A program made the translations under genes and the position numbers. From assembly GCF_964355755.1 (NCBI RefSeq), contig NC_092679.1, positions 12,321,432 to 12,385,431 on the forward strand: a stretch of DNA of 64,000 nucleotides, given 5' to 3'. This DNA comes from Antedon mediterranea (taxonomy: Eukaryota > Animalia > Echinodermata). Shown piece by piece: positions 6,383 through 61,767 of the stretch (positions within the stretch are counted from its first letter, which is position 1; each line of letters begins with the position of its first letter). The notes under the pieces are model-generated. The model made no database searches and was not told where the DNA came from. It saw nothing but the letters and a program-made list of their open reading frames with translations.

Positions 6383-6389
6383 GATAGTT

Positions 6390-12037: not shown

Positions 12038-15000
12038 CAAAATAAGAATCTGTAATTATTGAATAATTTGACTTTTGTTTTTTAGCTATTATAGGCCTAT
12101 ACATTTGGAAATATCATTACATAATTATATTATTAAATAATATAGCTAGTTATTTATTCTAAATGTTATAAATGAATAATAGTGATATTGTCATATCACT
12201 TGTTAATTATTAATTAATATAATATATTAATACGCTATTATATGTTTTAAATATATTAAAAATCAAACAAAACAACTCCAACATTGGATCTACATAATAA
12301 TTGTTTTTGGAAATCATAAATTTACTCATGCAAATAATGAGGGAGTTTTATAAATTAAAAATATTATTCACCAACTGTTCCAATACTACACACGTGAGAC
12401 CAAAGACGATCAATTATTAATTACATTCTTAGTGCATGTACAGAGGTAATTGGCGAGTTACTCGATCTTGGATTTCTATTGATCATACACTCCAATAGTT
12501 ATCAATATAGCTTTCCCTTATGTTTCATATTTGTTGGAATTTTATTTCTGTCACATGATCTTGTTGAAAATAAGCACTTTCTTATCAGTGGTGGTGGTGG
12601 GGTGGTTTGTGGGGGATAGTTCACATTACACAGTGCTTGGTCTGGGAAAAGCGCTGCATAGTACAACTTAATATTAGGCCTATATGAAAAAAAGATTTCA
12701 TTTTCTACACTACGATATTATTATATTCCAAACTTCGTTGTCCTACGTCCCATGTAGGCTAGCCTGAGTGGCCTATAACAAGCCAATAAAATTAAGTTTT
12801 GAACAAGAAATATTTCTTACAAAAAAACGCTGCTCGCTTATTGAAAAAATATTTTTTATTTCAAATGTTTTTGAATGTGTCATTTTATTGTCACATAATA
12901 GTTATTTTACCTGAAAAAAATGTAATTTAAAGCAGCAAATACTTAAATTGTCTGTCAGACAATGGTTTTGGGGTTTCTTTTCTTTTTTTATATGTGAATA
13001 AATAGGCCTATTATTTTTTTGTTACAGAAGTGAATACTCAATTTCTGTCACTTTAGTTAATTTTATTGCTAAGGTCAAATCTGGGGGTCACTTCATCACC
13101 CTAGATATTTCAATTGTGAAGTATCCTATTACAAACACAAACTTTAATGGACTTTCGATAATAATTCAATGAATATCTGACAGTGAATATACCAGAAATG
13201 CTTAGGGATTTGTAATTTTTTTTAATGTCCTAATAGACTCTTTCCCAGACGTTTTTTGGGTCTACTGTAGCAGCTGGAATCAATAAATCATAGTGGAGTT
13301 TCCATTTTCACAAAACTGTCTGTCCTTAGAACTATAACTGCTGCTTGCTTTAGCTTCTGATTGAGTAGTCCTAATGGGACGTAATAAATTATATAATAAT
13401 ATAGGCCTAGGCCTAAAACTAAATTAATAATTTATTACATAGCGCCCTCTGTAGTTCTCTTTTTCGTCGCGCTGGCTACACATGTAAATTAATAATAACA
13501 CACAAAAAAGGGCTGCTAGGACTGGGTTTTGGGGCGATTCTTTTTAATCGTATGTATAGCTAATACTAGACATGTAACTCGTCACTTTGACGAGTTTGGT
13601 TATCCACCGCGCAAGTGGTGCAACATTAACACTAAGGGGTTAGGTTGAGGACAAAAGGAAGTGTTCACGTTGGCATTATGACCTGAACTGAAGAATATGA
13701 TATGTTTGTTATTGCTGAATTTTATTATTTAAATTCATATATAGTATACACAGTATAATCTGTATCCATATCACATACAGTGTAGAATAGGTGAAATTAC
13801 GGGACCCGCTATTTATTGCAATTTTTAACATGTTGACGGTTTTAAAATGAAACGCGAAGATAGCAATTCCGAAAGGAAATTATCTCAGCAACAACGTATT
13901 AGCGTGTAGAAGAAATTTGAATACGTGAAATATTGATGCGCGCTCTTTTAAATGTAATGAATTATGACGCAAAAGATGAAAATACGACCTTTTTTATTTA
14001 ACTGGCCATATAATGACGTCACAACATCCGATTGGCAACATTTTTACATAATTTCGTATCTACAATCCAATAGCTTCCAGAAAAAGTTTTAATCGTGATT
14101 ATCACATTTTATTCTTTCGAGCTATAACAGATTAAAATTTACTGTAAAGATGAAATTGATGCCACACGTGATTTAAATTTTTAGGCATGATGACGTCAAA
14201 AAAATTAAAATATTTTTAACTCATGCGAAAGATAGTTGATTGACCTAGACAATATCAAAATCGGGGTGAAAATGGAAATCGGATAAGTGGAGATGCGCTC
14301 TATTCAATGTGATGAGCTATGACGAAAGATACAAAAATCCTAAATTTTATATTCGCGTGGCCATACGATGACGTCACTATGTCCGGTTAGCCATATTAAT
14401 ACCTGATCCGATATCTACAACTCATCTACTTCTAGAATATGTCATCCACAAAAATTTGACCGTCTAGTTTAGAAATTACGACTGTTTAAAAAAAGGCATA
14501 TTTTAAACGAATTTTTTAACCTTTTCATAAAAAACGCGCGCAAATTGTCCAATTCGACGTGCTCGTATGACGTATCTTTAAGTCGAAATTGTTTAAAATT
14601 TGGTAAAATTACTAGAAAAGGCTGGAAAAACATAAATTACGCGAATAAAATACGTTTTCGATGCTACGTGCGCACCGCACACGTAAAAATGTGCGCACGC
14701 GTGGGAATTGTTGACATGCTTAAAACGACATGAAACGCGTAGAAAGTTGATTATAAATTAATTTTGCGCATTTTGAAATTTTATATGCGCGTGCGCGCGT
14801 AACTTTGTGTAAAACACGCAATTTTTTTTCAACAGAAAGTTAGCGCAGGATATAAATTAAACTTTTGCAAAGTTTCAAGTTGAAATGTTATTTGGTTGTC
14901 GAGCTATGTTAAATACGACAAAATCGTTAAATCGCGCGTAAGTCACGTTGCGCAATTGTAAAAATCATGAAAAGCTTCGCTGCACATCTTCATGTGCACG

Positions 15001-16976
15001 ACGATATGTTGAGAAAGTTACAAAATGTTATGTTTGCAAGTTTTCGAGAAAAGCGTTCCACAAAAATCATACAGAAAGAAAGAAGAGAAATAACTAGACA
15101 TGAAACTCGTCACTTTGACGAGTTAGTTATCCGCACGACAAACGCCACGTGCACGTCATACGTTGGAATATTGCACAGAGATAAAAATTATGGCATTATG
15201 ACCTGAACTGAAGAATATCATACGTTTTTAGTGCTGAATTCAGTCTATTTTGTGTCATATAGTATATACATGCAAACAGTATAATCTGTATACATTATTA
15301 CATACAGTGTAGAATAGGTGAAATTACGGAACCCGCAATTTATTCAAATTTTTAACATGGTTAAGGTATCAAAATGAAACACTAAGATAGCAATTTCGGG
15401 AGGAAATTATCTCAGTAACAACATATTAACGTGTAAAAGAAATTCGAATACGTGAATTATTGATGCGCGTTCTTTTAAATGTAATGAATGATGACGCAAA
15501 ATATGAAAATACGACATTTTTTATTTAACTGGCCATATGATGACGTCACAACATGCGATTGGCAAAATGTTCACAGGATTTCGTATCTACAATCCAATAG
15601 CTTCCAGAAAATGTTTTAATCGTGATTATCACATTTTAGTCTTACGAGCTACAACAGATAAAAATTTACTGTAAAGATGAAATTAATGACCCACGTAATT
15701 AAAATTTTTAGGCATGATGACCTCATAAAAATTTAAATATTTTTAACTTGTGCGAAAGATAGTTGATTTACCTAGACAATATCAAAATCGGCGTGAAAAT
15801 GGAAAACTGATAAGTGGCGATGCGTTCTACTAAATGTGATGAGCTATGACGAAAGATACAAAAATCCTAAATTTTATATTCACGTGGCCATACGATGACG
15901 TCACAATGTCCGGTTAGCCATAAAAATACATGATCCGATATCTACAACTCATCAACTTCCAGAATTTGTCATCCACAAAAAGTTGATCGTGTAGTTTAGA
16001 AATTATGACTGTTTAAAAAAAGGCATAATTTTGACAAATTTTTGAACTTTTTCATCAATAACGCGCGCAAATTGTCCAATTCGACGTGCTCGTATGACGT
16101 AACTTTAAGTCGAAATTGTTTAAAAGTTGGTAAAATTACTAGAAAAGGCTGGACAAATATAAATCACGCGAAAAAAATATGTTTTTAATGCTACGTGCGC
16201 ACCACACACGTAAAAATTTGCGCACGCGTGGGAATTTTTGACATGCTTAAAATGACATGAAACTCGTAGAAAATTGAATAGAAATTAATTTTGCGCATTT
16301 TAAAATTTTAAATGTGCGTGCACGCGTAACTTTGTGTAAAACACGCAATTTTTTTTTAACAGGAAGTTAGCGCATGACACAAATTAAACTTTTGCAAAGT
16401 TTCAGTTTAAAATCTTTTATGGTTTTCGATCTATGTTAAATACGCGAAATTCATAAAATCGCACGTAAGTCACGTTGCACAACTCTGACGTCATTAAAAA
16501 ATAAGAGGTGCACAAGTTCACGTAAATGCCCACATGTTGTCAAAGTTATGAAATGTTATGTTTACACATTTTAGAGAAACGCTCTACACAAAAATAGCGA
16601 GAAAGAAAGAAGAATAATACAGAAAAAAATATTGATCCCATACAATAACAAGGAGTTATCCGCCAAGTGCGGATAACTAAAAAGTTGATGTTGATGATGA
16701 TTTCGTACAATCACAAGAGGTTATCCTGCAACTTCGTTGCGGATAACCAAAAAAAAGTAACACTACAATTCCAAGGGCTTATCCGCTTGAGGCGGATAAC
16801 CAACTAGATCTAAACTCGTCACTTGAGGACGAGTTTGGTTATCCGCCAGCAACAAAACGTATCTTGCGTATTCAAGTACTTATAAGTTATGACTTTTCCA
16901 AAAAAAGTAGGCTATTCAAAATTAAAACTGCCCTTCAAGTGTAATAACCAAATAAACCTTTTTAATTAATTGTTTT

Positions 16977-17047
16977 CCCGAGACGGGATTCGAACCCGGT
17001 ACCTCTGATACCAAAGTCGGTTGCACTACACATCGATCCATATGAGC
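16977..17047 (-). pseudogene. tRNA-derived (SINE-head-like) module inside family C; further copies near 21580, 22185, 22495, 22822, 27399; diverged relatives in family B near 18845, 20338, 24743, 26160
   Basis: Minus strand reads gctcatatggatcgatgtgtagtgcaaccgactttggtatcagaggtaccGGGTTCGAATCCCgtctcggg: a B box / T-arm and an A-box-like TGGCTCGRTG in most copies. The acceptor stem is not intact. Confidence 0.65.
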
Positions 17048-20000
17048 ACCTGCTGAAAAAATCCGAAGAAAGAGTCCTCGTTCATTCGATATGTCGTGAA
17101 CCCCCCTCGATGCAAGTTGATTATTACATAATGAACTTAAATCATAATTTTTACTATGATGAAATCTTCACAAATTTTAAACAGTTACATATTATGAAAG
17201 TGCATACTTTCAAGTTTTATATATTAACATGTAAAGAAAAAAGATAAACGTTATGTTTATTGTTTTGCTCTTTGAATATGTTTATGTTTATTTGATGATA
17301 ATTATTTCAAAAATTACATTTAATATGCAAATAATGTAGCCATCAAACACTTTTTAACATTCAAGACTATAATAAATTAGACCTGTGATTAATACACTGC
17401 AAGAAAATAAAATAAAAAATGGGGGTAACCTTGCATTCTGATGAACTGTTTCATTTTTAAAAGTAGACATATTTTGCAACATTTTCACAATTTGTTGACG
17501 TTTTCGTGCGCAACCTGTCATGTTTAACGTGCTCGTAGAACGCCATTTCAAGTTGAAAAGTGAATAAAATAACGTAAAATTGTTAACCGAAGATTTAAAA
17601 ACACAAATCGTGTAAAAGAAATGTTCATACGTGTTCCCTACGCCGTGCGCGCGTAAAAATGTGCGCACCAGTGGCAATTTTTTAAACGCTTAAAATGACC
17701 TGAATCGTGCTCTAATTTAATCAGAAATTGATTTGAAGCATTTTAAAATTTCAAACGCCATTTACGCGTGCACTTTCTAATGTTACAAATTGCGGTAGCG
17801 TTAAAAAAGTTAACTATTGATGTGAAGCAAACGTGGCTGAAAATGATGTTAAAAAATATTCATTTGTTTCGAAGTTATAACCAATTTAAGATTTTCAGAA
17901 AATCACGCGTAACTTACGCTACGCGGCTCTGACATCGTCAAAAAGCTTGGCTGGACAACTTCAGTAAAATGTCTAAATGCTGAACAAGTTACAACATATT
18001 ATGTTTACACGTTGAAGAGAAACAGCGTGCACAAAATAAGAAGAGTAAAATATTTCAAACGCAATTTACGCGAAAACTTTCTAATCTCCAAAAATTTGTT
18101 AAACATTCCAAAAGTTAGCCATTGATGTGAAGAAAACGTGGCTGAAAATTTCGTTAAAAAATATTTATCGGTTTCGAAGTTATGACCGATTTAAGATTTT
18201 CAGAAAATCGCGCGTAACTTACGCTACGCGGATCTGACATTGTCAAAAAGCTTGGCAGTACATCTTCAGTTAATTGTCTATATGTTGACGAAGTTACAAC
18301 ATGTTTTGTTAACACGTTGAAGAGAAAACGCGTGCACAAAATCTGAGAAAGAAAGAAGAATAATAAAAAAAAAAAAAAGTAACACTACAATAACAAAGGT
18401 TATCCGCTTGAGGCGGATAACCAATAAATAAATAAATAAATAAAGATTTTGACAGAATCAAGAGGTTATATGCATATCATGCATATAACCTAATAAACTA
18501 GATTTAATTCGTCACTATGACGAATTATAGGTTATATGCATTGATTTAAATAAAGATAATTGATTTTTAAAATATATATTGATTGATTGATTTTCTCAGA
18601 ATCTTTAATTATTTATAATATATGATAGGACCTTGCTAACGCGAACACCATAGCCGGTATCACAATCCGATCAAAGATCCATATGCGTATAATGTCATAA
18701 ACCACATTTGTTGTTACATAATAATAAAGACATAAGTTAATTTTTATCTAGATTTCATTATAAATCATGTGTATAATCTATACACTAAGAAATAAATTTG
18801 AACAAACAATACGGATAATAAAAAAAAACTAATTTTGTTTCGTTTCCCAAGGTGAGACTCGATCTCGGTACTTGAATGCTATAGACACGAGCAAAGACCA
18901 CCGAGCCATACACAACTGACTAAAAGTTATGGAAAGATTCCTCCGTGTATTTACTATGCAGTAACCACTTTGGTGCAGATAGATTATTACATACCGCAAT
19001 GAATTATAATGTTTTACTATGATGACATCTTTAAAAATTAAAAAAAAATGATGCACTGTCAAACTATATACTTTTAACTTTAATATATGAACTTCTTAAG
19101 GAAGAAAGTTAACGTTAAGTTTGTTATTTTGGCCTAAGAAAATGTTATAATTTGTTTGATTGTCGAAATTAATTTTGTTAAATTTAATATGCCATTAATG
19201 ATGACTTAATCAACTTTTGTTCTTCTAATTTCATAATAAATCATACATATGATACATACACTTCAAGAAAATTAAATAAAAAATAGGTGTTCCCGAGCAT
19301 TCTAACGATATATATTAATTTTAAAATTTAGCATATTTTCACCATTTTGTTAACTTACACGTGCGTAGCCCGTCACTTTTGACGTCCTCGTATAACGCTG
19401 TTTCGCGTTGAAAAGTGAATAAAATATGATGATATTATTAAAGAAAGGTTATACAACAGTAATCGGACACAAACAGTGCGCATTAACGTTTGACGCGCAG
19501 TGCGCGTGCAAAAATCTGCGCACTCATGGCAATTTTTTAAACGCTTAAAATTGCCTGAAACGTACTCTAATTTCATCGAAAATAAATTCTGACAATTTTC
19601 AACATTTTAAGCGCGCGTACGCATGCGTTATATGCGCTACGCACGTAATTGTATTGCCATATGATGAAATATGACCTGAAATTTATGAGTACCAAATTTT
19701 GTTTAAAAGTGATTCATGTTTGTGAAGATATGATTACAAACGTGATTTCGTTAAATCGCGCGTAGACCGCGTAATTTTTGATTGCGCATCGTGAAAACAT
19801 AACCACATCGATTCCTGGCCATAAGGAATATACTCTGAAATATTGACTTAGATAGATGAAACTGATGCCAAGATAATTCACGGACAAATAGTGCTAAGGA
19901 AAGAATAAATAAATAAATAAATAAAGATTTTGACAGAATCAAGAGGTTATATGCATATCATGCATATAACCTAATAAATAAATAAACTAGATTTAATTCG

Positions 20001-22099
20001 TCACTATGACGAATTATAGGTTATATGCATTGATTTAAATAAAGATAATTGATTTTTTAAAGATATATTGATTGATTGATTTTCTCAGAATCTTTAATTA
20101 TTTATAATATATGATAGGACCTAGTACCTTGCTAACGCGAACACCATAGCCGGTATCACAATCCGATCAAAGATCCATATGCGTATAATGTCATAAACCA
20201 CATTTGTTGTTACATAATAATAAAGACATAAGTTAATTTTTATCTAGATTTCATTATAAATCATGTGTATAATCTATACACTAAGAAATAAATTTGAACA
20301 AACAATACGGATAATAAAAAAAAAATCTTATTTCGTTTCCCAAGGTGAGACTCGATCTCGGTACCTTGAATGCCATAGACACGAGCACAGACCACCGAGC
20401 CATACACAACTGACTAAAATTTGTAGAAAGATTCCTCCGTGTATTTACTATGCAGTAACCACTTTGATGCAAATAGATTATTACATACCGAAATGAATTA
20501 TAATTTTTTACTATGATGACATCTTTAAAATGTAAACAAATGATGCACTGTCAAACTACATACTTTTAACTTTAATATATGAACTTTTGAAGGAAGAAAG
20601 TTAATGTTAAGTTTGTTATTTTGGCCTAAGAAAATGTCATAATTTGTTTGATTGTCGAAATTATTTTTTTTAAATTTAATATGCAATTAATGATGACTTA
20701 ATCAACTTTGGTTCTCTTAATTTGATAATAAATCATACATATGATACATACACTTCAAGAAAATGAAATAAAAAATAGGTGTTCCCCTGCATTCTGACGA
20801 TATATATTAATTTAAAAATTTAGCATATTTTCACCATTTTGTTAACTTATACGTGCGTAGCCAATCACTTTTGACGTGCTCGTATAACGCAATTCCGAGT
20901 TGAAACCTGAATCAAATATGATGATATTATTAAAGAAAGATTGTAAAACAGAAATCGGGCAAAAAGAGTGCGCATTAACGTTTAACGCGCAGTGCGCGTG
21001 CAAAAATTTGCGCACTCATGGCAATTTTTTAAACGCTTAAAATTGCCTGAAACGTACTCTAATTTCATCGAAAATAAATTTTGACAATTTTGAACATTTT
21101 AAGCGCGCGTACGCAAGCGTTATATGCGCTACGCACGTAATTGTATTGCCATATGATGAAATATGACCTGAAATTTATGAGTACCAAATTTTGTTTAATT
21201 GTGATTCATGCTTGTGAAGATATGATTACAAACGTGATTTCGTAAAATCGCGCGTAGACCGCGTAATTTTTGATTACGCATCGTGAAAATATAACCACAT
21301 CGATTCCTGGCCATAAGGAATATACTCTGAAAACTTGACTTAGCTAGATTAAACTGATGCCAAGATAATGCACGGACAAAATAGTGCTAAGGAAAGAATA
21401 AATAAACTAGAACTTAAACTCGTCACTTGAGGACGAGTTTGGTTATCCGCCCGCAAAAAAAACGTATCTTGTGCATTCAAGTACTTTTCAATCATGACTT
21501 TTCCAAAAAGTAGCCTATTCGAAATTAAAACTGCCCTTTCATTGTAATAACCATATAAATCATTTTATTTAATTGGTTTCCCGTGACGAGATTCGATCCC
21601 GGTACCTCTGATACCAAAGTCGGTTGCACTACACATCGAGCCATATGAGCACCTGCCGAAGGAAATCCGAAGAAAGTTTACACGTTCATTCGGTATGTCG
21701 TGAACCACTCGATGCAAATAGATTATTACTTAGCAAACTAAATCATAATTTTTACTATGATGAAATCTTCAAAAATGTTAAACAGTGACATATTATGAAA
21801 GTGCATACTTTTAAGTTGTATATATTAACATGTGAAGAAAAAAGATAAACGTTATATTTATTGTTTTGCTCCTTGAAAACGTTTATGTTTGTTTGATGAT
21901 AAATATTTCAAAAATTATATTTAATATGCAAATAATGTAGCCATCAAACACGTTTTAGCATTCAACACTATAATAAATCAGACCTATGATTCATACACTG
22001 CAAGAAATTAAAATAAAAAATGGGGGTAACCTTGCATTCTGATGAACTGTATCATTTTTAAAAGTAAAAAAAATCAAAATAAAGAGTGCCAAGCCTTGA

Positions 22100-22147
22100 T
22101 TCAACGTTTCGATCTTTATTTGATCATCATAAATATCATCATCAGGT
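22100..22147 (-). ncRNA. Hammerhead-ribozyme-like core remnant (Penelope-type)
   Basis: Minus strand cCTGATGAt..gatc-aaataaa-gatcGAAACgttg: conserved boxes flanking a stem II, with a short internal duplication. Confidence 0.45.
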
Positions 22148-25100
22148 GTAACTAAAAAAACAAACTTATGTTTTAACGTTGTTTCCCATGCTGGGATTCG
22201 ATCCCTGTGCGGCTAATAGCAAAGTCGGTGGCACTACACATCGAGCCATAAGGACACCCGTTACATATGTCACGAAGAAAGATTCCTTGTCCATTTGCTA
22301 TTTCATGAACCCCTTGATGGAAATAGATTATTACATACCGAATTAAATCATGATTTATACTATGATGGCATTTTCAACAAAATAAAAAAGTCACATATTT
22401 TTTTTATAAAATAATATTGACGGGAAAAACTACGTTTATTGTTTCACGCTTACAAAACAATTGTTATTTTTATATCATTTTATTTAAATGTTTTCCCGTG
22501 ATGGAATTTGATCCCGGTATCTCTGATACCAAATTCGGTTGCACTAACACATCGAGCCATATGAGCACCTGCCGAAAAAAATCCGAAGAAAGAGTCCTCG
22601 TGCATTCGGTATGTCGTGAACACCCCTCGATGCAAGTTGATTATTACATATCAAACTAAATCATAATTTTAACTATGAAGAAATCTTCACAAATTTTAAA
22701 CAGTGACACATTACAAAAGTGCGTATCTTGCGCATTCAAGTACTTTTCAGTTGTGACTATTCAAAATTAAAACTGCCCTCTCAGTGTAATAACCAACTAA
22801 ACCCTTTTAATTAATTGTTTTCCCGTTACGGGACTCGAACCCGGTACCTCTGATACCAAAGTCGGTTGCATTACACATCGAGCCATATGACCACCTGCTG
22901 ACGAAAATCCGAAGAAAGAGTCCTCGTTCATTCGGTATGTCGTGAACCCCCTCGATGCAAGTTGATTATTACATATCAAACTTAAATCATAAATTTTACT
23001 ATGATGAAATCTTCAAAAATTTTAAACGCTGATATTTTATGAAAGTACATACTTTCAAGTTTTATATATTAACATGTAAAGAAAAAAGATAAATGTTATG
23101 TTTATTGTTTTGCTCTTTGAATAAGTTTATGTTTGTTTGATGATAAATATTTCAAAAATTATATTTAATATGCAAATAATGTAGCCATCAAACACGTTTT
23201 AGCATTCAACACTATAATAAATCAGACCTATGATTCATACACTGCAAGAAATTAAAATAAAAAATGGGGGTAACCTTGCATTCTGATGAACTGTGTCATT
23301 TTTAAAAGTAGACATATTTTGGAACATTTTCACAATTTGTTGACGTTTTCGTGCGCAACCTGTCATGTTTAACGTGCTCGTAGAACGCCATTTCAAGTTG
23401 AAAAGTGAATAAAATAACGTAAAATTGTTAACAGAAGATTTAAAAACACAAATCGTGTAAAAGAAATGCTCATACCTGTTCCCTGCGCCGTGCGCGCGTA
23501 AAAATGTGCGCACCAGTGGCAATTTTTTAAACGCTTAAAATGACCTGAATCGTGCTCTAATTTAATCAGAAATTGATTTGAAGCATTTTAAAATTTCAAA
23601 CGCCATTTACGCGCGCACTTTCTAATGTTACAAATTGCGATAGCGTTAAAAAAGTTAACTATTGATGTGAAGCAAACGTGGCTGAAAATGACGTTAAAAA
23701 ATATTCATTTGTTTCGAAGTTATAACCAATTTAAGATTTTCAGAAAATCACGCGTAACTTACGCTACGCGGCTCTGACATCGTCAAAAAGCTTGGCTGGA
23801 CAACTTCAGTAAAATGTCTATATGTTGAACAAGTTACAAAATGTTATGTTAACGCGTTACAGAGAAACAGCGTGCACAAATTAGGAGCATTTTAAAATTT
23901 CAAACGCAGTTTACGCGCAGACTTTCTAGTGTTCAAAAATTTGCTGAAGAGCGAAAAAGTTAGCCATTGATGTGAAGAAAACGTGGCTGAAAATTTCGTT
24001 AAAAAATATTTATCGGTTTCGAAGTTATGACCGATTTAAGATTTTCAGAAAATCGCGCGTAACTTACGCTACGCGGATCTGACATTGTTCAAAAGCTTCG
24101 CAGTACATCTTCAGTTAATTGTCTATATGTTGACCAAGTTACAAAATGTTATGTTAACACGTTCAAGAGAAAACGCGTACACAAAATCTGAGAAAGAAAG
24201 AAGAATAATAAAAAAAAAAAGTAACACTACAATAACAAAGGTTATCCGCTTGAGGCGGATAACCAATAAATAAATAAATAAATAAAGATTTTGACAGAAT
24301 CAAGAGGTTATATGCATATCATGCATATAACCTAATAAAGATTTTGACAGAATCAAGAGGTTATATGCATATCATGCATATAACCTAATAAACTAGATTT
24401 AATTCGTCACTATGACGAATTATAGGTTATATGCATTGATAATTAAAATAAAGATAATTTATTTTTAAAAGATATTTTGATTCATTGATTTTCTCAGATT
24501 CTTTAAATAATATATAATTATATGATAGGACCTTGCTAACGCGAATACAATAGCCGGTATCACAATCCGATCAAAGATCCCTCTGCGTATAATGTCATAA
24601 ACCACATTTGCTGTTACATAATAATAAAGACATAAGTTATTTTTTATCTAGATTTCATTATAAATCATGTGTATAATATATACACTAAGAAATAAATTTG
24701 AACAAACAATACGGATAATAAAAAAAAAAATCTTATTTCGTTTCCCAAGGTGAGACTCGATCTCGGTACCTTGAGTGCCATAGACACGAGCACACACCAC
24801 CGAGCCATACACAACTGACTAAAAATTGTAGAAAAATTCCTACGTGTATTTACTATGCAGTAACCACTTTGGTGCAGATAGATTATTACATACCGCAATG
24901 AATTATAATTTTTTACTATGATGACATCTCTAAAAATGTACAAAAATGATGCACTGTCAAACTATATACTTTTAACTTTAATATATGAACTTTTGAAGGA
25001 AGAAAGTTAATGTTAAGTTTGTTATTTTGGCCTAAGAAAATGTCATAATTTGTTTGATTGTCGAAATGAATTTTTTTAAATTTAATATGCAATTAATTAT

Positions 25101-28100: not shown

Positions 28101-31100
28101 TTTTAAACCCTTAAAATGACCTGAAACGTGCTCTAATTTAATCAGAAATTGATTTGAAGCATTTTAAAATTTCAAACGCCGTTTACGCACGCACTTTCTA
28201 CTGTTACAAAATTCGGTACGGATAAAAAAGTTAACAATAAATGTAAAGCAAACGTGGCAGAAAATTACGTTAAAAAATATTTATCTGTTTCAAAGTTATG
28301 ATCAATTTAAGATTTTCAGAAAATCGCGCGTAACTTACGATACGCGCATCATACAGCGTCCAAAAGCTTGGCTGCACATCTTCAGTTAAATGTCTATATG
28401 TTGACCAAGTTATATCATGTTATGTTCACGCGTTGTAGAGAAACAGCGTGTACAAATTTGGAGCATTTTAAAATTTCAAACGCAATTTACGCGCAAACTT
28501 TCTAGTCTCCAAAAATGTGCTAAAGATTGAAAAAGTTAGCCATTGATGTGAAGAAAACGTGGCTGCAAGTTACGTTAAAAAATATTTATCGGTTTTGGAG
28601 TTATGATCAATTTAAGATTTTCAGAAAATTGCGCGTAACTTACGCTACGCGGATCTGACAGCGTCCAAAAGCTTGGCTGCACATCTTCAGTTAAATGTCT
28701 AAATGTTTACCAAGTTACAACATGTTATGTTAACACGTTGCAGAGAAACGTCGCGTACAAAAAGTGGCGGAAAGAAAGAAGAATAATAAAAACTAGATTT
28801 GAACTCGTCACTACGGACGAGTTAGGTTATCCGCAGCGCAAAAGCCACGTGCACGTCATACGTTAGAATATTGAGCGCAAAAAAAAAAAACGATTATGGC
28901 ATTGAAAAATGTTAGTGCGCTCTCTATTTTGCGTCGCGTCTAAGAAGTATATACGGTATAACACTATATACTGTATACGTACTACATACAGTGCAGAATA
29001 GGTGAAAATAAGTGACCAACGTTATTGACGCATTTGAACATGATGACGTCATCACAATTTTTAAAATGGTAGATCATGCGAAAGATAATTGATTGATCTA
29101 GACAATATAAAAAAATTGAGTGAAATGGAATAAGGATAAGTAGAGATGCGCTCTATTAAATTGACGAGCTATGACGAAAGAGAAAAAAATCCTATATTTT
29201 ATATTCGGGTGGCCATACGATGACGTCACAATGTCCGGTTAGGCATATCAATACATGATTCGAGAAAAACAACTCATCTACTTCCAGAATATGTAATTTT
29301 AAAAAAGTTCACCACGTAGTTTAGAATTTATGACTGTTTAAAAAAAGGTCTAATTTTGACGAATTTTTGAACTTTTTCATCAAAAACGCGCGCAAATTGT
29401 TAAATTCTACCTGCTCGTATGACGTGATTTTAAGTCGAAATTGATTGAAAATTTGGTAAAATTACTAGAAAAGGCTGAAAAAACAAAAATCAAGCAAAAA
29501 AAAGATGTTTTTGCGCTAAGTGCGCACGCGCGCGTAAAAAATTTGCGCACGCGTGGGAATTTTTGAAATGTTCAAAATGACCTGAAACGCGTAGAAAGTT
29601 GATTAGAAATTGATTTTACGCATTTTGAAATTTTAAACGCGCGTGCGCGCGTAACTTTCTGTCAAACATGCCATTTTTAATCCATAGAAAGTTTGCCCTT
29701 GGTATAACTTAAATTTTCACGAAGTTTCAATAAAAAATGACTTTTGGTTTTCAATATATGATCAATCATTGAAATTCATAAAATCGCGCGTAACTTACGC
29801 TGCGCAACTCCAAAATTGTCCAAAAGCTTGGCTGCACATCTACAGCTATAGCTCAATCGTATGACAAAGTTACACAATCTTATGTTAGCCAGAAGATAGA
29901 GATGTGCTGCGGACAAAATTCGTGGAAAGAAAGAAGAACTAGACATGAAACTCGTCACTTTGACGAGTTAGTTATCCGCACAACGACAAACGCCACGTGC
30001 ACGTCATACGTTGGAATATTTCACACACAGATAAAGATTATGGCATTATGACCTGATCTGAAGAATATGATATGCTGTTAGTGCTGAATTCTGTCAATTT
30101 TGTGTCATATAGTATACATGCAAACAGTATAATCTGTATACATATTACATACAGTGTAGAATAGGTGAAATTACGGGACCCGCCATTTATTCAAATTTTT
30201 AACATGGCGACGGTATCAAAATGAAACACTTCGATAGCAATTTCAGAAGGAAATTATCTTAGGAACAACATATTAACGTGTAGAAGAAATTTGAATACGT
30301 AAAATATAGATGCGCACCCTTTTAAATGTGATGAACTATGACGCAAAATATTAAAATACGACTTTTTTTATTTAACTGGCCATATGATGACGTCACAACA
30401 TCCGATTGGAAATTTTTTTACATGATTTCGTATCTACAATCCAATCGCTTCCAGAAAACGTTTAATCGTGATTATCACATTTTATTCTTACGAGCTATAA
30501 CAGATTAAAATTTACTGTAAAGATGAAATTAATGCCACATGTAATTTAAATTTTTAGGCACGATGACGTCATAACAATTAAAATATTTTTAACTCATGCG
30601 AAAGATAGTTGATTGACCTAGACAATATCAAAATCGGGGTGAAAATGGAAAATGTATAAGTGGAGATGCGCTCTATTAAATGTAATGAGCTATGACGAAA
30701 GATACAAAAATCCTCAATTTTATATTCGTGTGGCCATACGATGACGTTAAAATGTCCGGTTAGCCATATTAATACATGATCCGATATCTACAACTCATCA
30801 ACTTCCAGAATATGTTATCCACAAAAAGTTGACCGTGTAGTTTAGAAATTACGATTGTTTAAAAAAAGGCATAATTTTGACAAATTGTTGTACTTTTTCA
30901 TCAAAAACGTGCGCAAATTGTCCAATTCGACGTGCTCGTATGACGTAACTTTAAGTCGAAATTGTTTAAAAGTTGGTAAAATTACTAGAAAAGGCTGGAA
31001 AAACATAAATTACGCGAAAAATATATGTTTTTAATGCTACGTGCGCACCGCACACGTAACAATTTGCGCATGCGTGGGAATTTTTTACATGCTTAAAATG

Positions 31101-34100
31101 ACATGAAACGCGTAGAAAGTTGATTAGAAATTAATTTTTCGCATTTTAAAATTTCAAACGCGCGTGCGCGCGTAACTTCTTGTAAAACATGCCATTTTTT
31201 GTGCACAAACAGTTTGCCCTTGATATGACTTAAATTTTCACAAAATGTAAAAACAAAATTACGCTTGGTTTTAAATCTATGATCAATTTAAAAAAATCAT
31301 AAAATCACGCGTAAGTCACGTTGCGTAACTATGACGTCATTCAAAAATAGGAGGTGCACAACTTCACGTAAATGCCCATATGTTGACAAAGTTATGAAAT
31401 GTTATGTTTACCCATTTTAGAGATACGCTCTGCACAAAAAGTGAGGGAGAAAGACTGAAGAATAATGAAAAAAAAAAAAAAGACACAGGACAGTTCCAAG
31501 GAGTTATCCGCTAAATGCGGATAACTAACTAGACATGAAACTCGTCACTTTGACGAGTTAGTTATCCGCTCGACAAACGCCACGTGCACGTCATACGTTA
31601 CAATATTGCGCACAGAAAAATATTAAGGCATTATGACCTGAACTGAAGAATATGATATGTTGTTATTTCTGAATTCTGTTATTTTGTGTCATATAGTATA
31701 CACAGTACAATCTGTATACATATCACAAACAGTGTAAAATAGGTGAAATTACGGGACCCGTATTTTATTGTAATTTTTAACATCTTGACGGTTTCAAAAT
31801 GAAATGCAAAAGTAGAAATTTCAGAATGAAATTATCTCAGCAACAACATATTAACGTGTAGAAGAAATTTGAATACGTGAAATATAGATGCGCGCTCTTT
31901 TAAATGTGATGAACTATGACGCAAAATAAAGAAATACAACTTTTTTTATTCAACTGGCCATATGATGACGTCACTACATCTGATTGGCAAAATGTTTACA
32001 TGAATTCGTATCTACAATCCAATAGCTTCCAGAAAACGTTTTAATCGTGATTATCACATTTTATTCTTACGAGCTATAACAGATTAAAATTTACTGTAAA
32101 GATGAAATTAATGACCCACGTAATTAAAATTTTTAGGCATGATGACGTCATCAAAATTAAAATATGTTTAACTCATGCGAAAGATAGTTGATTGACCTAG
32201 ACAATGTTAAAATCTCGGTGAAAATGGAAGATGGATAAGCGTGATGCGCTCCATTGAATGTGATGAGCAATAACTAAAGAGACAAAAATCCTATATTTTA
32301 CATTTGTGTGGCCATATGATGACGTCACAACATCCCTGAAGAAAAAATTCTGCATGAATTCATATCTACAACATAACTGCTTTCATATTAAATTAAAAAA
32401 ATCAGGGGTAACGGTTGATCCTGAGGAGCTATAATAGATTCAAAATAGGCATAATTTTGACAATATTTTGTAACTTTTGCAACTACAACGCACGCAAATT
32501 GTCTAAATCAACGTGTTCGTATGACGTCATTTTAATTTGAAATGATGTCAATCTTTTTTAAAATGACTAGGAAAGGCTGGAAAATCACAATTTAATAGAA
32601 AAAAACATGATTTTCATGCTGCGTGCGCACCGCACGTGTAAAATTGTTCGCGTGCGCGGGAAATTTTGACATGCGCAAAATGTCATGAATGGCGTAAAAA
32701 GTTGGTTAGAAATTAATTTTGCACATTTTAAAATTTTAAATGCGCGTGCGCGCGTAACTTCTTGTAAAACATGCCATTTTCAATCAACAGAAAGATTGCC
32801 CTTGATATGACTTAAATTTTCAGAAAGTGTAAAAAAAAAATTATGCTTGGTTTTTAATCTAAGATCAATCATAAAAAATCATAAAATCGCGCGTAAGTCA
32901 CGTTGCGCAACTCTGACGTCATTCAAAATAGGAGGTGCACAACTTCACATAAATGCCCATGTTTTGACAAAGTTATGAAATGTTATGTTTACCCATTTCA
33001 GAGAAACGCGCCTCACAAAAAGGAAGGAAAGAAAGAAGAATGAAACTCGTCACTTTGACGAGTTAGTTATCCGCTCGACAAACGCCACGTGCACGTCATA
33101 CGTTAGAATATTGCACACAGAAAAATATTAAGGCATTATAACCTGAACTGAAGAATATGATATGTTGTTATTTCTGAATTCTGTTATTTTGTGTCATATA
33201 CATAGTATACACAGTACAATCTGTAAACATATCACAAACTGTGTAAAATAGGTGAAATTACGGGACCCGTATTTTATTGTAATTTTTAACATCTTGACGG
33301 TTTCAAAATGAAATGCAAAAGTAGAAATTTCAGAATGAAATTATCTCAGCAACAACATATTAACGTATAGAAGAAATTGGAATACGTGAAATATTGATGC
33401 GCGCTCTTTTAAATGTAATGAAATATAACGCAAAAGATGAAAATACGACTTTTTGTATTTAACTGGCCATATGATAACGTCACAACATTCGATTGGCAAA
33501 ATTTTCACATGATTTTGTATCTACTATACAATAGCTTCCTGAAAACTTTTTAATCGTGATTATCACATTTTATTCTTACGAGCTATAACAGATTAAAATT
33601 TACTGTAAAGATGAAATTAATGACCAATGTAATTTAAATTTTTAGGCATGATGACGTTAAAAAAATTAAAAAATTTTTAATTCATGCAAAAGATAGTTGA
33701 TTGACCTAGAATATATTAAAATCGGGGTGAAAATGGACAACGAATAAGTGGAGATGCGCTCTATTAAATGTGATGAGCTATGACGAAAGAGACAAAAATC
33801 CTATATTTTATATTCGCGTGGCCATACGATGACGTCAAAATGTCCGGTTAGCCATATTAATGCATGATTCGATATCTACAACTCATCAACTTCCAGAATA
33901 TGTAATTTAAAAAAAGTTCTCCATGTAGTTTAGAATCTATGACTGTTTAAAAATAGGCATAATTTTGACGAATGTTTGAACTTTTTCACCAGAAACGCGT
34001 GCAAATTATTTAATTCGACGTGCTCGTATGACGTAATTTTAAGTCGAAATTGTTTAAAAGTTGGTAACATTACTATAAAAGGCTGAAAAAACATAAATCA

Positions 34101-37100
34101 CGCGAAAAAAATATGTTTTTAACGCTACGTGTGTACCGCGTGCGTAAAAAGTTTCACGCGCGTGGGAATTTTTGACATGCTCAAAATGACATGAAACGCA
34201 TAGAAAGTTGATTAGAAGTTGATTTTTCGCACTCTAAAATTTTAAACGCGCGTGCGCGCGTAACTTTTTGTGAAACATGCTATTTTTAATCCATAGAAAG
34301 TTTGCGCTTGATGTGACTTAAATTTTCACAAAGTGTCAAAACAAAATTATGTTTCGTTTTTAGTCTATGATCAATCATTGAAATTCATAAAATCGCGCGT
34401 AAGTCACGTTGCGCAACTCTGACGTCATTCAAAAATAGGAGGTGCACAAGTTCACGTAAATGTCGATATGTTGACAAAGTTACGATATGTTCTGTTTACA
34501 AGTTTTAGAGAAACGCGACGCACAAAAATGACAGAAAGAAAGAAGTACTAGATTTGAACTCGTCACTTCGGACGAGTTAGGTTATCCGCAGCGCAAAGGC
34601 CACGTGCACGTCGTACGTTAGAATATTGCGCGCAGAAAAACGATTATGCCATTGAAATAATGTTAGTGCGCTCTCTATTTTGCGTCACGTCAAAGTATAT
34701 ACGGTATACACTATATTCTGTATACGTACTACATACAGTGCAGAATAGGTGAAAATAAGGGACCCAAGTTATTGATGCTTTTGGACATGATGACGTCATC
34801 ACAATTTAAAAAATGGTAGATTATGCGAAAGATAATTGATTGGCCTAGACAATATAACAAAATGGGGGGAAATGGAATACGGATAAGTGGAGATGCGCTC
34901 TATTAAATGTGATGAGCTATGCGAAAGGGACAAAAATCTTATATTTTATATTCGAGTGGCCATACGGTGACGTCACAATGTCCGGTTAGCCATATCGATG
35001 CATGATTTGATATTTACAACTCATCTACTTCCAGAATCTGAAATTTTAAAAATTTTCACCTCGGAGTTTAGAATCTATGACTTTTTAAAAAAAGGCATAA
35101 TTTTCACGAATTTTTGAACTTTTTCATCAAAAACGCGCGCAAATTGTTCAATTCTACGTGCTCGTATGACGTGATTTTAAGTCGAAATTGTTTGAAAGTT
35201 GGTAAAATTACTAGAGAAGGCTGAAAAAACAAAAATCAAGCAAAAAAAAACATGTTTTTGCCTTACGTGCGCACACGCGCGTAAAAATATTGCGCACGCG
35301 TGGGAATTTTTGAAATGCTCAAAATGACATGAAACGCGTAGAAAGTTGATTAGAAATGAATTTTGCGCATTTTGAAATTTTGAACGCGCGCGCGCGCGTA
35401 ACTTTATGTAAAACATGCCATTTTTAATCCATAGAAAGTTTGCGCATGATATAACTTAAATTTTCACCAAGTTTCAATAAAAAATGACTTTTGGTTTTTA
35501 ATCTATAAACAATCATTGAAATTCATAAAATTGCGCGTAACTTACGCTGCGCAACTCGAAAATCAAAAAACAAAGTTTCTTGCACATCTACAGATATAAA
35601 TCAATCTTATCACAAAGTTTTACAATCTTATGTTAGCCAGAATTAGAGATATGCGTGCAACAAAATTTTTGGAAAGAAAGAAGAAAATAGAAAAAAAAGA
35701 AAAAAAAACTAGATTTGAACTCGTCACTTCGGACGAGTTAGGTTATCCGCAGCGCAAAGGCCACGTGCACGTCATACGTTAGAATATTGCGCGCTGAAAA
35801 ACGATTATGCCATTGAAAAAATGTTAGTGCGCTCTCTATTTTGTGTCACGTCAAAGTATATACGGTATACACTATATTCTGTATACGTACAACATACAGT
35901 GCAGAATAGGTGAAAATAAGGGACCCAAGTTATTGACGCTTTTGGACATGATGACGTCATCACAATTTAAAAAATGCTAGATTATGCGAAAGATAATTGA
36001 TTGGCCTAGACAATATAACAAAATGGGGGAAATGGAATACGGATAAGTGGAGATGCGCTCTATTAAATGTGATGAGCTATGAGAAAGAGACAAAAATCCT
36101 ATATTTTATATTCGAGTGGCCATACGTTGACGTCACAATGTCCGGTTAGCCATATCGATGCATGATATGATATCTACAACTCATCTACTTCCAGAATCTG
36201 AAATTTTCAAAATTTTCACCACGGACTTTAGAATCTATGACTTTTAAAAAAAAGGCATAATTTTCACGAATTTTTTAACTTTTTCATCAAAAACGCGCGC
36301 AAATTGTTCAATTCTACGTGCTCGTATGACGTGATTTTAAGTCGAAATTGATTGAAAACTGGTAAATTTACTAGAAAAGGCTGGAAAAACAAAAATCAAG
36401 GAAAAAATAGATGTTTTTGCGCTACGTGCGCACGCGCGCGTAAGAAAAGTGCGGACGCGTGGGAATTTTTGATATGCTCAAAATGACATGAAACGCGTAG
36501 AAAGTTGATTAGAAATTGATTTTTCGCATTTTGAAATTTTAAACGCGCGTGCGCGCGTAATTTTCTGTAAAACATGCCATTTTCTCTCCATAGAAAGTTA
36601 GCGCATGATATAAATTAAACTTTTGCCAAGTTCCAATTTAAATGGTTTAATAGTTTTCGATCTAAATTAAATACGCGAAATTCATAAAATCGCGCGTAAC
36701 TTACGCTGCGCAACTCGGACGGTACCGAAAACCTTATTACGACATATTCAGATAGAGATCAGTCTTCTGATAAAGTTACAAAATGTCATGTTGAGAAGAT
36801 TTAGAGATATACGCGCAACAAAATTCTGGGAAAGAAAGAAGAATAAGATAGAAAAAAAAAAAAAAAAAAAAAGATCGTGACAATAACAAGAGGTTATCCG
36901 CCAAGTGCGGATAACCAAAATAATACAGAAAAAAAATTTGATGAAACAGGACGATTACAAGGAGTTATCCGCTACTAAGCGGATAACTAACTAGACATGA
37001 AACTCGTCACTTTGACGAGTTAGTTATCCGCTCGACAAACGCCACGTGCACGTCATACGTTAGAATATTGCACACAGAAAAATATTAAGGCATTATGACC

Positions 37101-38576
37101 TGAACTGAAGAATATGATATGTTATTTCTGAATTCTGTTATTTTGTGTCATATACATAGTATACACAGTACAATCTGTATACACATCACAAACAGTGTAA
37201 AATAGGTGAAATTACGGGACCCGTATTTTATTGTAATTTTTAACATCTTGACGGCTTCAAAATGAAATGCAAAAGTAGAAATTTCAGAATGAAATTATCT
37301 CAGCAACAACATATTAACGTGTAGAAGAAATTTGAATACGTGAAATATTGATGCGCGCTCTTTTAAATGTAATGAAATATAACGCAAAAGATGAAAATAC
37401 GACTTTTTTTATATAACTGGCCATATGATGACGTCACAACATTCGATTGGCACAATTTTCACATGATTTTGTATCTACAATAAAATAGCTTCCTGAAAAC
37501 GTTTTAATCGTGATTATCACATTTTATTCTTACGAGCTATAATAGATTAAAATTTACTGTAAAGATGAAATTAATGACCAAAGTAATTTAAATTTTTAGG
37601 CATGATGACGTTAAAAAAATTAAAAAATTTTAAATTCATGCAAAAGATAGTTAATTGACCTAGAATATATTAAAATCGGGGTAAAAATGGACAACGAATA
37701 AGTGGAGATGCGCTCTATTAAATGTGATGAGCTATGACGAAAGAGACAAAAATCCTATATTTTATATTCGCGTGGCCATACGATGACGTCACAATGTCCG
37801 GTTAGCCATATTAATGTATGATCCGATATCTACAACTCATCAACTTCCAGAATATGTAATTAAAAAAAAGTTCCCCATGTAGTTTAGAATCTATGAATGT
37901 TTAAAAATAGGCATAATTTTGACGAATTTTTGAACTTTTTCACCAAAAACGCGTGCAAATTATCTAATTCGACGTGCTCGTATGACGTAATTTTAAGTCG
38001 AAATTGTTTAAAATTTGGTAACATTACTAGAAAAGGCTGAAAAAACATAAATCACGCGAAAAAAATATGTTTTTAACGCTACGTGTGCACCGCGTGCGTA
38101 AAAATTTTCGCGCGCGTGGGAATTTTTGACATGCTCAAAATGACATGAAACGCATAGAAAGTTGATTAGAAGTTGATTTTTCGCTTTCTAAAATTTTAAA
38201 CGCGCGTGCGCGCGTAACTTCTTTTGAAACATGCTATTTATAATCCATAGAAAGTTTGCGCTCGATATGACTTAAATTTTCACAAAGTGTCAAAACAAAA
38301 TTATGTTTGGTTTTTAGTCTATGATCAATCATTGAAATTCATAAAATCGCGCGTAAGTCACGTTGCGCAACTCTGACGTCATTCAAAAATAGGAGGTGCA
38401 CAAGTTCACGTAAATTTCGATATGTTGACAAAGTTACGATATGTTCTGTTTACAAGTTTTAGAGAAACACGACGCACAAAAATGACAGAAAGAAAGAAGT
38501 ATAATACAGGAAAAAAATTTGATGAAACAGGACGATTACAAGGAGTTATCCGCTACTAAGCGGATAACTAATAAAG

Positions 38577-38608
<32 letters not shown>

Positions 38609-38878
38609 TCCTGACAATAACAAGGGGTTATCCGCCAAGTGCGGATAACCAAAAAAAAAGAAACACTACAATAACAAAGGTTATCCGCTTGAGGCGGATA
38701 ACCAATAAATAAATAAATAAATAAAGATTTTGACAGAATCAAGAGGTTATATGCATATCATGCATATAACCTAATAAAGATTTTGACAGAATCAAGAGGT
38801 TATATGCATGATAATGCATATAACCTAATAAAAGACTTTTCAAATGCATCGTACAAAAGCGAGTACAGTAGTACAACG

Positions 38879-39038
38879 TGTGATGTTGAGTTGTATTTAG
38901 GCTATAGCGCCATCTATAGACGAATGTCAAATAAATAGGTTGTTGGCCTAGCGATGTAAAACGTGTACATGTGCGTATTTATTGTTGTACTAAAACATCA
39001 TTATAAAGCCTTCCAGCGTCCAGTGAGAGACGTTCACA
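38879..39038 (+). repeat. 5' LTR (160 bp)
   Basis: Identical by eye to 52631-52790. Confidence 0.96.
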
Positions 39039-39052
39039 TGGTGTCAGAAGTG
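39039..39052 (+). promoter_or_regulatory. Primer binding site (tRNA-Leu-type)
   Basis: TGGTGTCAGAAGTG immediately follows the 5' LTR; complementary to a tRNA 3' CCA end. Confidence 0.8.
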
Positions 39053-39101
39053 TTAAAGATCTTCAGGATCAACTGCCGTTTTGGCTCCGGAGTTTTTTTT
39101 A

Positions 39102-42100: not shown

Positions 42101-43118
42101 TAATGATGTAATTTAATAAAAAATATTTATATTATTGAAATGAATTTCTAAATAAAAATACATTGTCAATTTAATTTTGTTGTTGTTATGTTTGGTTTAT
42201 TTTTTGCTATCCTATGTATTATGATAATTTTGCTATTCTATGTATTAGAATATTTATATATAACAGCATATCAAAATCTTTTAATAAAGAAACTAAACAA
42301 AATTTGTAAAAAGTATACATGAATGATTTGCATTTGTATAGAACGCCTTTGTCTTAAAATTCCGTCTCCACCCTGCTTTGACGTGATTTCTTTGTTTAAC
42401 ATACCTAGGTCTATTGTTCCATTGTGGCAGTCCAGCAAACACATAGTGGTTTTCTAATGTTAGTGTTTTGTTAATGTTTAGGTTCACTATAACCGTTATT
42501 TTATTACATTTCTATAACGTAAAAAGAAACATTCAGATAACGTTTTTAGGTTAGCATTTACAGGATACATAACGCTATAAAAACGGTACTTGAATTTTAA
42601 AACTATAAAAATCAGAAAAAAAATCAATAAAAACATTATTAGATAATGCCTCATTTCTATCATTTTATTATACATAACCCTAACCCTTTATTTGTTAATA
42701 CTGTACTAACTTAATTATTTAGATAGATTAGATAGATTTAGATACACAAAGGCGCTAGGCCGGCAAAAGTTATTAAAATATGTTTCAGAACACCAGGTTT
42801 ATTTCATTGGTACATTATATTTTATCAGTAAACCGTATATTAAATGCCTGGAATTGTTATCATTTTATTTTATTGATGATCCTCCTTTATCTGCAAAAAA
42901 ATAAAAACATTATTAGATAGATCTACATTGTTATATAATTATGTAAACATTTTGTATATTTTTAAGTTGTTGGAATTCGATCATGATTAAGTCAATTACA
43001 AGGCGGTAGACCGGGAACCAGTCAACTGACAGAAGAGGGCTCTCAATGTCATTTCTATTGACGTACCTGCACACAATATTCATAACCACACACCCCCACT
43101 TTAATAATGGAATAACCC
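39102..43118. mobile_element. Non-autonomous DNA transposon with ~790-bp TIRs (GGG...CCC termini, probable TA TSD) in the Gypsy leader
   Basis: 39102-39892 is the reverse complement of 42325-43118; junctions ta|gggttattcc ... ggaataaccc|ta. Confidence 0.85.
40405..41088 (-). mobile_element. Further HINE-like element (family E, subTIR AGGTGATCATTT) nested in the long-TIR element; carries an orphan A'-type 5' end
   Basis: ctagaatttaattcgtcactttgacgaattataggtgatcatttt on the left and taggtgatcattttattctaaatgatcaccta on the right. 40970-41032 matches 16684-16748. Confidence 0.8.
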
Positions 43119-43175
43119 TAAAAAAAAATTCTGGTATCAATTGAATACAGTCAAGTCCTCTGTAACGGTTCGAGC

Positions 43176-49364: not shown

Positions 49365-49366
49365 TA

Positions 49367-61643: not shown

Positions 61644-61733
61644 ATCACGGCCATAAATTTCTTTTTTAAAATGTAAACATACTTTGTTATAGATAATTAT
61701 TTGTTACTCTTTTTACATTCTTTACCGTACTCT

Positions 61734-61767
<34 letters not shown>

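What the first reader, a model, noticed from the sequence alone, without database searches (positions are those of the whole stretch)
13566..38825. Russian-doll stack of self-targeting Helentron-like elements whose ends close like nested parentheses
Seen: 16 CTAG/stem-loop ends and 17 palindromic opposite ends, all co-oriented. New elements sit either in the AAGAAAGAAGAATAA/AATA microsatellite 50-80 bp from another element's palindromic end, or directly beside such an end. Opening order B(24393), B(25817), C(27228), D(28793), ..., A(36991) is closed in exact reverse order A(38569), D(38650), C(38703), B(38771), B(38825). Established: subTIRs, a 3' stem-loop, a microsatellite and TT targets without TSD define Helentron-associated HINE/DINE-1 elements. 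Inference: each element carries the landing pad for the next, so several families build an ordered, self-regenerating insertion stack that records insertion history. I do not know whether such a system has been described. Two internal units (31529 and one D) lack a matching end.
Basis: partly seen in the sequence, partly recalled or inferred. Interest (0 to 1): 0.88.

Follow-up and report, generated by a model that had tools for sequence, protein, structure and literature searches.

The report
Rolling-circle transposons stacked seven deep
Sixteen gene-less 1.1-1.6 kb transposon copies of five families sit inside and beside one another like brackets, up to seven deep, likely because each copy carries a T-rich strip just behind its front end that is the favourite landing site of the next; shallower self-insertion of this kind is already described in fungi.

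Summary
The structure is real. At 13566-38826 lie 16 co-oriented 3' ends (hairpin + CTAG; one lacks CTAG) and 17 palindromic 5' ends of five non-coding families with Helitron2/HINE (HLE2) termini. 14 of 16 pair as brackets (0 of 200,000 label shuffles; P=0.002 for separated ends only). Seven measurable nested insertions lie 51-81 bp from the host's 5' end, in the most T-rich 30-mer of the element. Much of the 'self-targeting' therefore follows from ordinary T-rich target choice (P=1.6e-9 against any TT, only 0.001-0.05 against T-rich sites), and family B also sits at many unrelated sites. Pad insertion is mostly cross-family (3 of 12 same family); head-to-tail joints are 6 of 6 same-family. 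Four metagenome contigs from divergent relatives show both joints (5 of 5 ends). Self-insertion 31-85 nt behind the 5' end is published for fungal FoHeli; I found no paper on deep, balanced, multi-family nests. This scan noted such nests before, in this and other genomes. Long reads, genome-wide counts and an autonomous partner were not available.

The parts
13566..16748 (-). Family E element, host of A15094; left edge of the array, 3' end (CTAG + hairpin) against non-element DNA
   Evidence: strand inferred from HLE2 end structure
15094..16678 (-). Family A element, complete, inserted 70 bp from E's 5' end
16749..16801 (-). Orphan family C 5' end (no body)
16804..18422 (-). Family C element, complete, head-to-tail with the orphan C end; internal 305-bp dimer as in other C copies
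18423..18491 (-). Orphan family B 5' end with its (TTAT)n pad remnant
18498..19972 (-). Family B element, complete, uninterrupted
19987..24333 (-). Family B element hosting C21407 69 bp from its 5' end
21407..24264 (-). Family C element, internally rearranged (partial repeats at 22067-22712)
24334..24386 (-). Orphan family B 5' end, identical 53-bp repeat of the preceding one
24393..38826 (-). Family B element, level 1 of the deep nest; right edge of the array
25817..38772 (-). Family B element, level 2, 54 bp from the host's 5' end
27228..38703 (-). Family C element, level 3, 69 bp from the host's 5' end
28793..38650 (-). Family D element, level 4, 51 bp from the host's 5' end
29939..31526 (-). 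Family A element, level 5, first of four A copies in a row inside D's pad (81 bp from D's 5' end)
31529..33040 (-). Family A element without a 5' end; one ~70-bp deletion would account for this and for the missing CTAG of the next copy (inferred)
33041..36988 (-). Family A element lacking the terminal CTAG, hosting two D copies 70 bp from its 5' end; 97% identical to A36991
34548..35708 (-). Family D element without a 5' end (level 6)
35709..36916 (-). Family D element, complete, in the poly-T of D34548 (level 7)
36991..38569 (-). Family A element, complete, head-to-tail with A33041
40405..41087 (-).

Best explanation
The array is a stack of gene-less transposon copies of five families with Helitron2/HINE-type ends, likely built by repeated rolling-circle insertion at two spots next to the front (5') end of resident copies. 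Shown: paired family-specific sub-terminal inverted repeats, hairpins at both ends, bracket order, insertion points 51-81 bp inside the host's 5' end, no target duplication beyond one base where an intact paralog allows comparison. Route 1 (inferred): an unseen autonomous partner inserts copies at T-rich sites; the best T-rich tract nearby is the microsatellite/poly-T each copy carries 54-68 bp behind its 5' hairpin, so any family lands there in the same orientation and brings a fresh pad. Route 2 (inferred, weaker): a copy joins flush to the 5' end of a copy with the same inverted repeat, as expected if the transposase re-uses the resident's own nick site or lays down circle junctions. Orphan 5' ends (C, B, B, the same order as the closing run) would come from copying that starts at an outer 5' end and stops at an inner 3' end, the FoHeli model; the two lost 5' ends from small deletions or read-through. 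The preference is partial: copies also sit at unrelated sites.
For: Bracket test. End structure and co-variation of the two inverted repeats across families A, B, C, F and relatives. Neighbouring levels B, C, D/A are only about 65-72% alike over parts, so tandem duplication cannot make the order. Pad enrichment P=1.6e-9 against all TT sites, 8e-5 and 0.0014 against T-rich sites; pad is the top T-rich 30-mer in 6 of 6 intact copies. Two B hosts 98.4% alike carry C copies only 91.8% alike at the same base, which suggests repeated use of the site. Same-family 6 of 6 for head-to-tail joints against 3 of 12 for pad nests, Fisher P=0.009; with relatives 9 of 9 against 5 of 14, P=0.003. In 4 metagenome contigs all 5 element 3' ends sit in a pad (about 65 bp from the 5' end, 2) or flush to a 5' end (3). 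A pad-to-head joint not present letter for letter in the window stands in run X9 at depth 1220, against about 300 for contigs with unique flanks. FoHeli precedent.
Against: B 3' ends have many unrelated flanks in run X9: 36 contigs in three listed rows, agreement 0.49-0.57, 67 more rows not shown, so nesting is not the only fate and its genome-wide share is unmeasured. With only four events counted the T-rich null gives P=0.011-0.074, and the pad window was drawn after seeing the data. One target has only 7 T in 12 and is not clean T|T. Events may not be independent (16852-19917 and 22713-25816 are 92% alike). Identity along copies is patchy (A31529 vs A33041: 98, 96, 90, 86, 77, 75, 90% per 200 bp), so recombination has remodelled the stack. 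Metagenome contigs favour high-copy joints. No transposase, circle or spanning long read was seen. 5'/3' polarity rests on analogy.
Confidence: 0.75

Rival explanations
1. True self-recognition: the transposase is drawn to resident 5' hairpins (bound, nicked or unwound there), and inserts at the nearest T-run; T-richness alone is not enough.
For: Enrichment persists against T-rich nulls (P=8e-5, 0.0014); 604 equally T-rich sites lie in the 38.7 kb outside the array with only the array itself, F and one old fragment inserted; one pad target is not very T-rich; distance 51-81 bp matches FoHeli's 31-85 nt and relatives' ~65 bp; flush joints are same-family.
Against: Window selected for nesting; few independent events; pad is the top T-rich site in every copy; many solo B flanks.
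Confidence: 0.35
2. Local hotspot plus recombination: a permissive repeat-rich region collected copies, and unequal crossing-over, slippage and deletions produced most of the tandem joints and orphan ends.
For: The region holds other stacked elements; mosaic identities and rearranged C21407; the 53-bp B end repeat at 24281-24392 is 100% identical and flanked by short direct repeats.
Against: Does not give cross-family bracket order, empty bodies, a left edge exactly at a CTAG, or the same joints in relatives.
Confidence: 0.15
3. Assembly artefact: collapsed or mis-joined repeats give an apparent nest.
For: No spanning read was available; contigs of the public runs are short and none spans an element.
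Against: No two units are identical (best pair 98.4%); split pads rejoin into the sequence of intact paralogs; mis-joins would not balance by family; the joints recur in other data.
Confidence: 0.04

Closest known systems
HINE / DINE-1 non-autonomous Helentrons (Thomas et al. 2014, PMC4067079; passages and part 2 of 8 of the text read) and oyster Cg_HINE (PMC7492417; passages)
   Same: Non-coding; 11-14 bp subTIRs; 5' inverted repeat; microsatellite behind the 5' end; 3' stem-loop; T-rich target, no clear target duplication, variable terminal Ts.
   Different: 3' subTIR lies 31-33 bp from the end (38-60 in mite HINEs); ends in CTAG; long central tandem arrays absent (only a 305-bp dimer in C); the passages read do not describe the microsatellite as an insertion site; partner not seen.
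Helitron2 / HLE2 (Bao & Jurka 2013, PMC3627910; HELIANO, PMC11417382; passages)
   Same: 5' T, 5' ATIR forming a hairpin, 3' ATIR directly before a 3' hairpin, compensatory change of both repeats between families, T|T insertion.
   Different: No RepHel protein here, so phylogenetic placement is open; reversed-polarity HLE2 elements exist.
FoHeli self-insertion and multiple 5' termini in Fusarium oxysporum (PMC5148889, passages and section 16; PMC13342296, passages)
   Same: Insertion 31-85 nt behind a relative's 5' end; copies with two to five 5' termini; one copy 2 bp upstream of another's 5' end; model of nicking at the outer 5' end and stopping at an inner 3' end.
   Different: There mostly inferred from duplicated 5' ends of one family; here the whole nested intermediates are preserved, seven deep, across five families, with an identifiable T-rich pad.
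Tandem Helitron arrays in plants and Drosophila (seen only as cited in PMC12628747 and PMC5148889; originals not read)
   Same: Head-to-tail copies; arrays with several 5' ends and one 3' end.
   Different: Those are attributed to rolling-circle multimers of one template; here neighbours differ by 3-13% and families alternate.
Zepp nested clusters of Coccomyxa (PMC3446292; passages)
   Same: Clusters up to 42 kb of nested copies.
   Different: Zepp is a LINE retrotransposon; no reverse transcriptase or other long ORF in these elements.

Membership tests
Helitron2 / HLE2 | 5' ATIR 0-2 bp from the 5' end, folding into a 5' hairpin; 5' T | tested here: met
   All 19 5' ends in 13-41.2 kb fold 9-13 bp hairpins, -9.2 to -12.0 kcal/mol, and start with T
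Helitron2 / HLE2 | 3' ATIR about 20-30 bp from the 3' end, directly before a hairpin | tested here: met
   10-15 bp match, 31-33 bp from the end, then an 8-11 bp stem; E matches only 9 bp
Helitron2 / HLE2 | Insertion between T and T without target duplication | tested here: inconclusive
   Split pads rejoin to intact paralogs within about one T; one site not T|T; microsatellite length varies 4-7 units
Helitron2 / HLE2 | RepHel transposase in the HLE2 clade | not testable with these tools
   No genome held; longest stop-to-stop frame in the array 111 aa (not scanned against Pfam); no element hit in viral or prokaryote collections
HINE / DINE-1 | Non-coding element with subTIRs, 5' inverted repeat, 5' microsatellite, 3' stem-loop | tested here: met
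HINE / DINE-1 | 3' subTIR 38-60 bp from the 3' end (mite HINEs) | tested here: not met
   31-33 bp; closer to the Helitron2 figure
Helentron (strict) | Autonomous partner with the same termini and an AP-endonuclease domain | not testable with these tools
   No genome held
Canonical Helitron (HLE1) | 5' TC, no terminal inverted repeats, A|T target | tested here: not met
   5' ends read TAG/TGG with subTIRs; only the 3' CTAG agrees
Satellite DNA by tandem duplication | Neighbouring units homologous end to end | tested here: not met
   B, C and A/D neighbours share only partial 65-72% matches

The most novel reading that the evidence does not exclude
HLE2 transposases have two hairpin-guided homing routes: a family-blind one into a conserved decoy pad about 60 bp behind any resident 5' hairpin, and a family-specific one that re-uses the resident's 5' nick site. 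The 'hitchhiking' microsatellite of HINE/DINE-1 elements would then be a selected safe landing site, and such nests a general route to satellite-like arrays and multi-ended composite elements in animals.
Probability: 0.3. Interest if true: 0.75.

Novelty: new variant of a known kind. Interest (0 to 1): 0.52.

Why it matters
How Helitron2/Helentron elements choose targets is poorly known, and the 5' microsatellite of HINE/DINE-1 elements has no assigned role in the papers I read. This locus preserves the nested intermediates that the fungal model only inferred, shows the products it predicts (extra 5' ends), and separates two joint types with different family specificity. That turns target choice into a countable question in any long-read assembly. 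It also warns that such nests pass as satellite DNA or break repeat annotation.

Tried and rejected
No whole genome is held, so solo versus nested copies could not be counted. Terminus pattern scans: viral contigs gave 1 match, a chance hit in coding DNA of 56% GC; prokaryote genomes gave 0; of 119 metagenome loci only 4 are element relatives, the other 115 were set aside as chance matches on stem extension, composition and BLAST. No autonomous partner found. Public runs are short contigs: none spans an element or the array; the tool skipped 19830-19932, so B-in-B pad joints were not visible, and summed depth is not a copy number. Depth across the B tail-head joint (about 360,000 against 1.1-1.3 million on the head) is not interpretable because both sides share AATAAA. 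Run X4 gave only 11 contigs on the B stretch. ARAGORN found no tRNA; Rfam gave only sub-threshold hairpin hits. The strictest T-rich null (10 of 12) fails as a model since real sites do not all meet it. A circle-recombination origin of tandem pairs predicts reciprocal hybrids, which the identity profiles neither show nor exclude. Look-ups of earlier findings by sequence and relatives were empty. A Drosophila paper on Helitron tandem insertions, recalled from memory, is not held.
Full report
Setting. The window is AT-rich eukaryotic repeat DNA (28-41% GC) holding a Ty3/Gypsy-type retrotransposon and a Polinton-like region. Earlier scan notes call the organism a feather star (not checked here). 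No whole genome is held.

Observation. A motif scan finds 16 hairpin ends in 13566-36991 and one more at 40405, all on one strand. Fifteen of the 16 begin with CTAG on the + strand; 33041 lacks it. There are 17 palindromic opposite ends in the array and 2 more at 41032 and 41087. Bodies are 1.15-1.6 kb and fall into families B (94-98% alike), C (90-94%), D (89-92%) and A/E (83-97%); B, C and A/D share only partial 65-72% matches, while D shares 73-85% with A over about 0.8-1 kb. The longest stop-to-stop frame is 111 aa.

Anatomy. On the minus strand each copy reads: T, a 10-15 bp repeat that folds with its neighbour into a 5' hairpin, about 30 bp, a T-rich microsatellite/poly-T, the body, the inverted copy of the repeat 31-33 bp from the end, a hairpin, CTAG. 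The repeat differs between families and both copies change together (also in relatives). This matches the Helitron2 description (PMC3627910, passages), HLE2 (PMC11417382, passages) and HINE/DINE-1 (PMC4067079; PMC7492417, passages). Polarity is by analogy only.

Brackets. A stack parse pairs 14 of 16 heads with same-family tails; 0 of 200,000 shuffles of all tail labels reach 14, and P=0.0019 when only the 10 tails separated from their body are shuffled. The deep nest is B[B[C[D[A, A, A[D[D]], A]]]], seven levels if A31529 and A33041 are neighbours whose joint lost about 70 bp (one event explains both the missing tail and the missing CTAG; inference), eight by the literal parse. Unpaired: heads 31529 and 34548, and tails 16801 (C), 18491 (B), 24386 (B).

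Targets. Seven measurable insertions lie 51-81 bp from the host's 5' end, and the split halves rejoin into the pad of intact paralogs within about one base where a paralog exists (none for E); one site is not clean T|T. No body carries an inserted terminus. Against all TT sites on both strands, the pad holds 160 of 2798 and P=1.6e-9 for seven events. Against sites with at least 8 or 9 T in 12 it holds 116 of 422 and 85 of 200, P=8e-5 and 0.0014; counting only four events, P=0.011 and 0.048 (0.074 at 10 of 12). The pad is the most T-rich 30-mer in 6 of 6 intact copies, centred 54-68 bp from the 5' end. So a T-rich preference explains orientation and much of the position; a residual hairpin effect is possible but not shown. 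The pad window was set after seeing the data, and the window was picked for its nest. Two B hosts 98.4% alike carry, at the same base, C copies 91.8% alike that differ from the sixth base on, which favours repeated use of the site over duplication.

Two routes. Head-to-tail joints are same-family in 6 of 6; pad nests in 3 of 12 (counting orphan ends and the F locus; 2 of 8 with visible heads), Fisher P=0.009. A and C joints have two A between the ends, B joints 6-14 bases of pad-like sequence. Bursts of one family could also give this, and events may not be independent.

Outside evidence. A terminus scan of metagenome contigs returned 119 loci; 4 are divergent relatives (best match to the window 114 bp at 75%), with 5 element 3' ends. 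Two sit in the pad of a 90%-identical host, about 65 bp from the 5' end by alignment to an intact copy (L043, L050); three are flush to a 5' end with the matching repeat (L050, L106, L108). Adding them gives 9 of 9 against 5 of 14, P=0.003. Low-coverage assemblies favour high-copy joints, so this shows recurrence, not frequency. In public run X9 (possibly the source sample), 20,371 contigs lie on one A copy, and a pad-to-head joint stands at depth 1220 against about 300 for contigs with unique flanks; that joint differs by one base from the nearest one in the window. Against exclusivity: B 3' ends run into unrelated flanks in 36 contigs of three listed rows (agreement 0.49-0.57; 67 rows not shown). 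No contig spans an element, so mis-assembly is excluded only indirectly: no identical units, balanced order, rejoining pads.

Remodelling. The three orphan 5' ends come in the order C, B, B, as in the closing run at the right, and the array's left edge is exactly a CTAG. One copying event from an outer 5' end to an inner 3' end would give this (inference). The F locus at 40405-41087 also has two 5' ends and one 3' end. Slippage is a rival for the identical 53-bp B repeat. Patchy identity along copies and the rearranged C21407 show recombination.

What is known. Fusarium FoHeli elements show duplicated first 31-85 nt, explained by self-insertion and nicking at the outer 5' end, and one copy 2 bp upstream of another's 5' end (PMC5148889, passages and section 16); up to five 5' termini in TR4 (PMC13342296, passages). 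Shuffled Helentron loci in oyster and tandem arrays in plants and flies are cited in a review (PMC12628747, passages). Paramecium Helitrons are proposed to target telomeric repeats in fixed orientation (PMC13085455, passages). Zepp LINEs form nested clusters (PMC3446292, passages). Nine library searches turned up no description of deep, balanced multi-family nests or of the microsatellite as landing site; the library lacks most subscription papers, other hits were seen as listings only, and no supplements were read. Earlier notes of this scan report like nests in this genome and in others; they are unchecked and not counted as support.

Verdict. Real, ordered, and best read as pad-directed self-insertion of HLE2/HINE-type elements with a second, same-family flush route and some later remodelling. 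New variant of a known kind; interest 0.52.

Noticed in passing
window 38879-52790: Ty3/Gypsy-type retrotransposon 52 bp right of the array: two identical 160-bp LTRs, 5-bp target duplication, primer-site-like sequence after the first LTR; protease, RT, RNase H and integrase domains lie in three separate reading frames; interrupted by two large inserts.
   Followed up: partly
window 39093-43127: About 4-kb element with 809-bp inverted ends (97% alike) inserted just behind the first LTR; it carries the F[E] mini-nest.
   Followed up: no
window 46185-48768: Four diverged tandem units of about 620-690 bp inside a ~5-kb insert in the retrotransposon.
   Followed up: no
window 57609-64000: Polinton/Maverick-like region: 1344-aa frame with a protein-primed type B DNA polymerase domain and a partial A32-like packaging ATPase at the window end.
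   Followed up: no
window 16965-17060, 27388-27482, 24735-24815, 20330-20412 (minus strand): B and C bodies carry a degenerate tRNA-like stretch with A-box- and B-box-like motifs (recognised by eye; motif labels recalled). ARAGORN finds no tRNA; Rfam gives only a weak T-arm hit, E=0.31. Could be a captured tRNA/SINE head.
   Followed up: partly
window 1735-1879: Old fragment of an A/D-like body on the opposite strand, about 69% alike, no termini found.
   Followed up: partly
window 1102-7320 vs 9445-12473: Interrupted partial duplication, 74-87% alike in six pieces.
   Followed up: no
L043:401-433: In this relative a 5' end is followed directly by a head-less body of the same family, a remodelled joint.
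   Followed up: no
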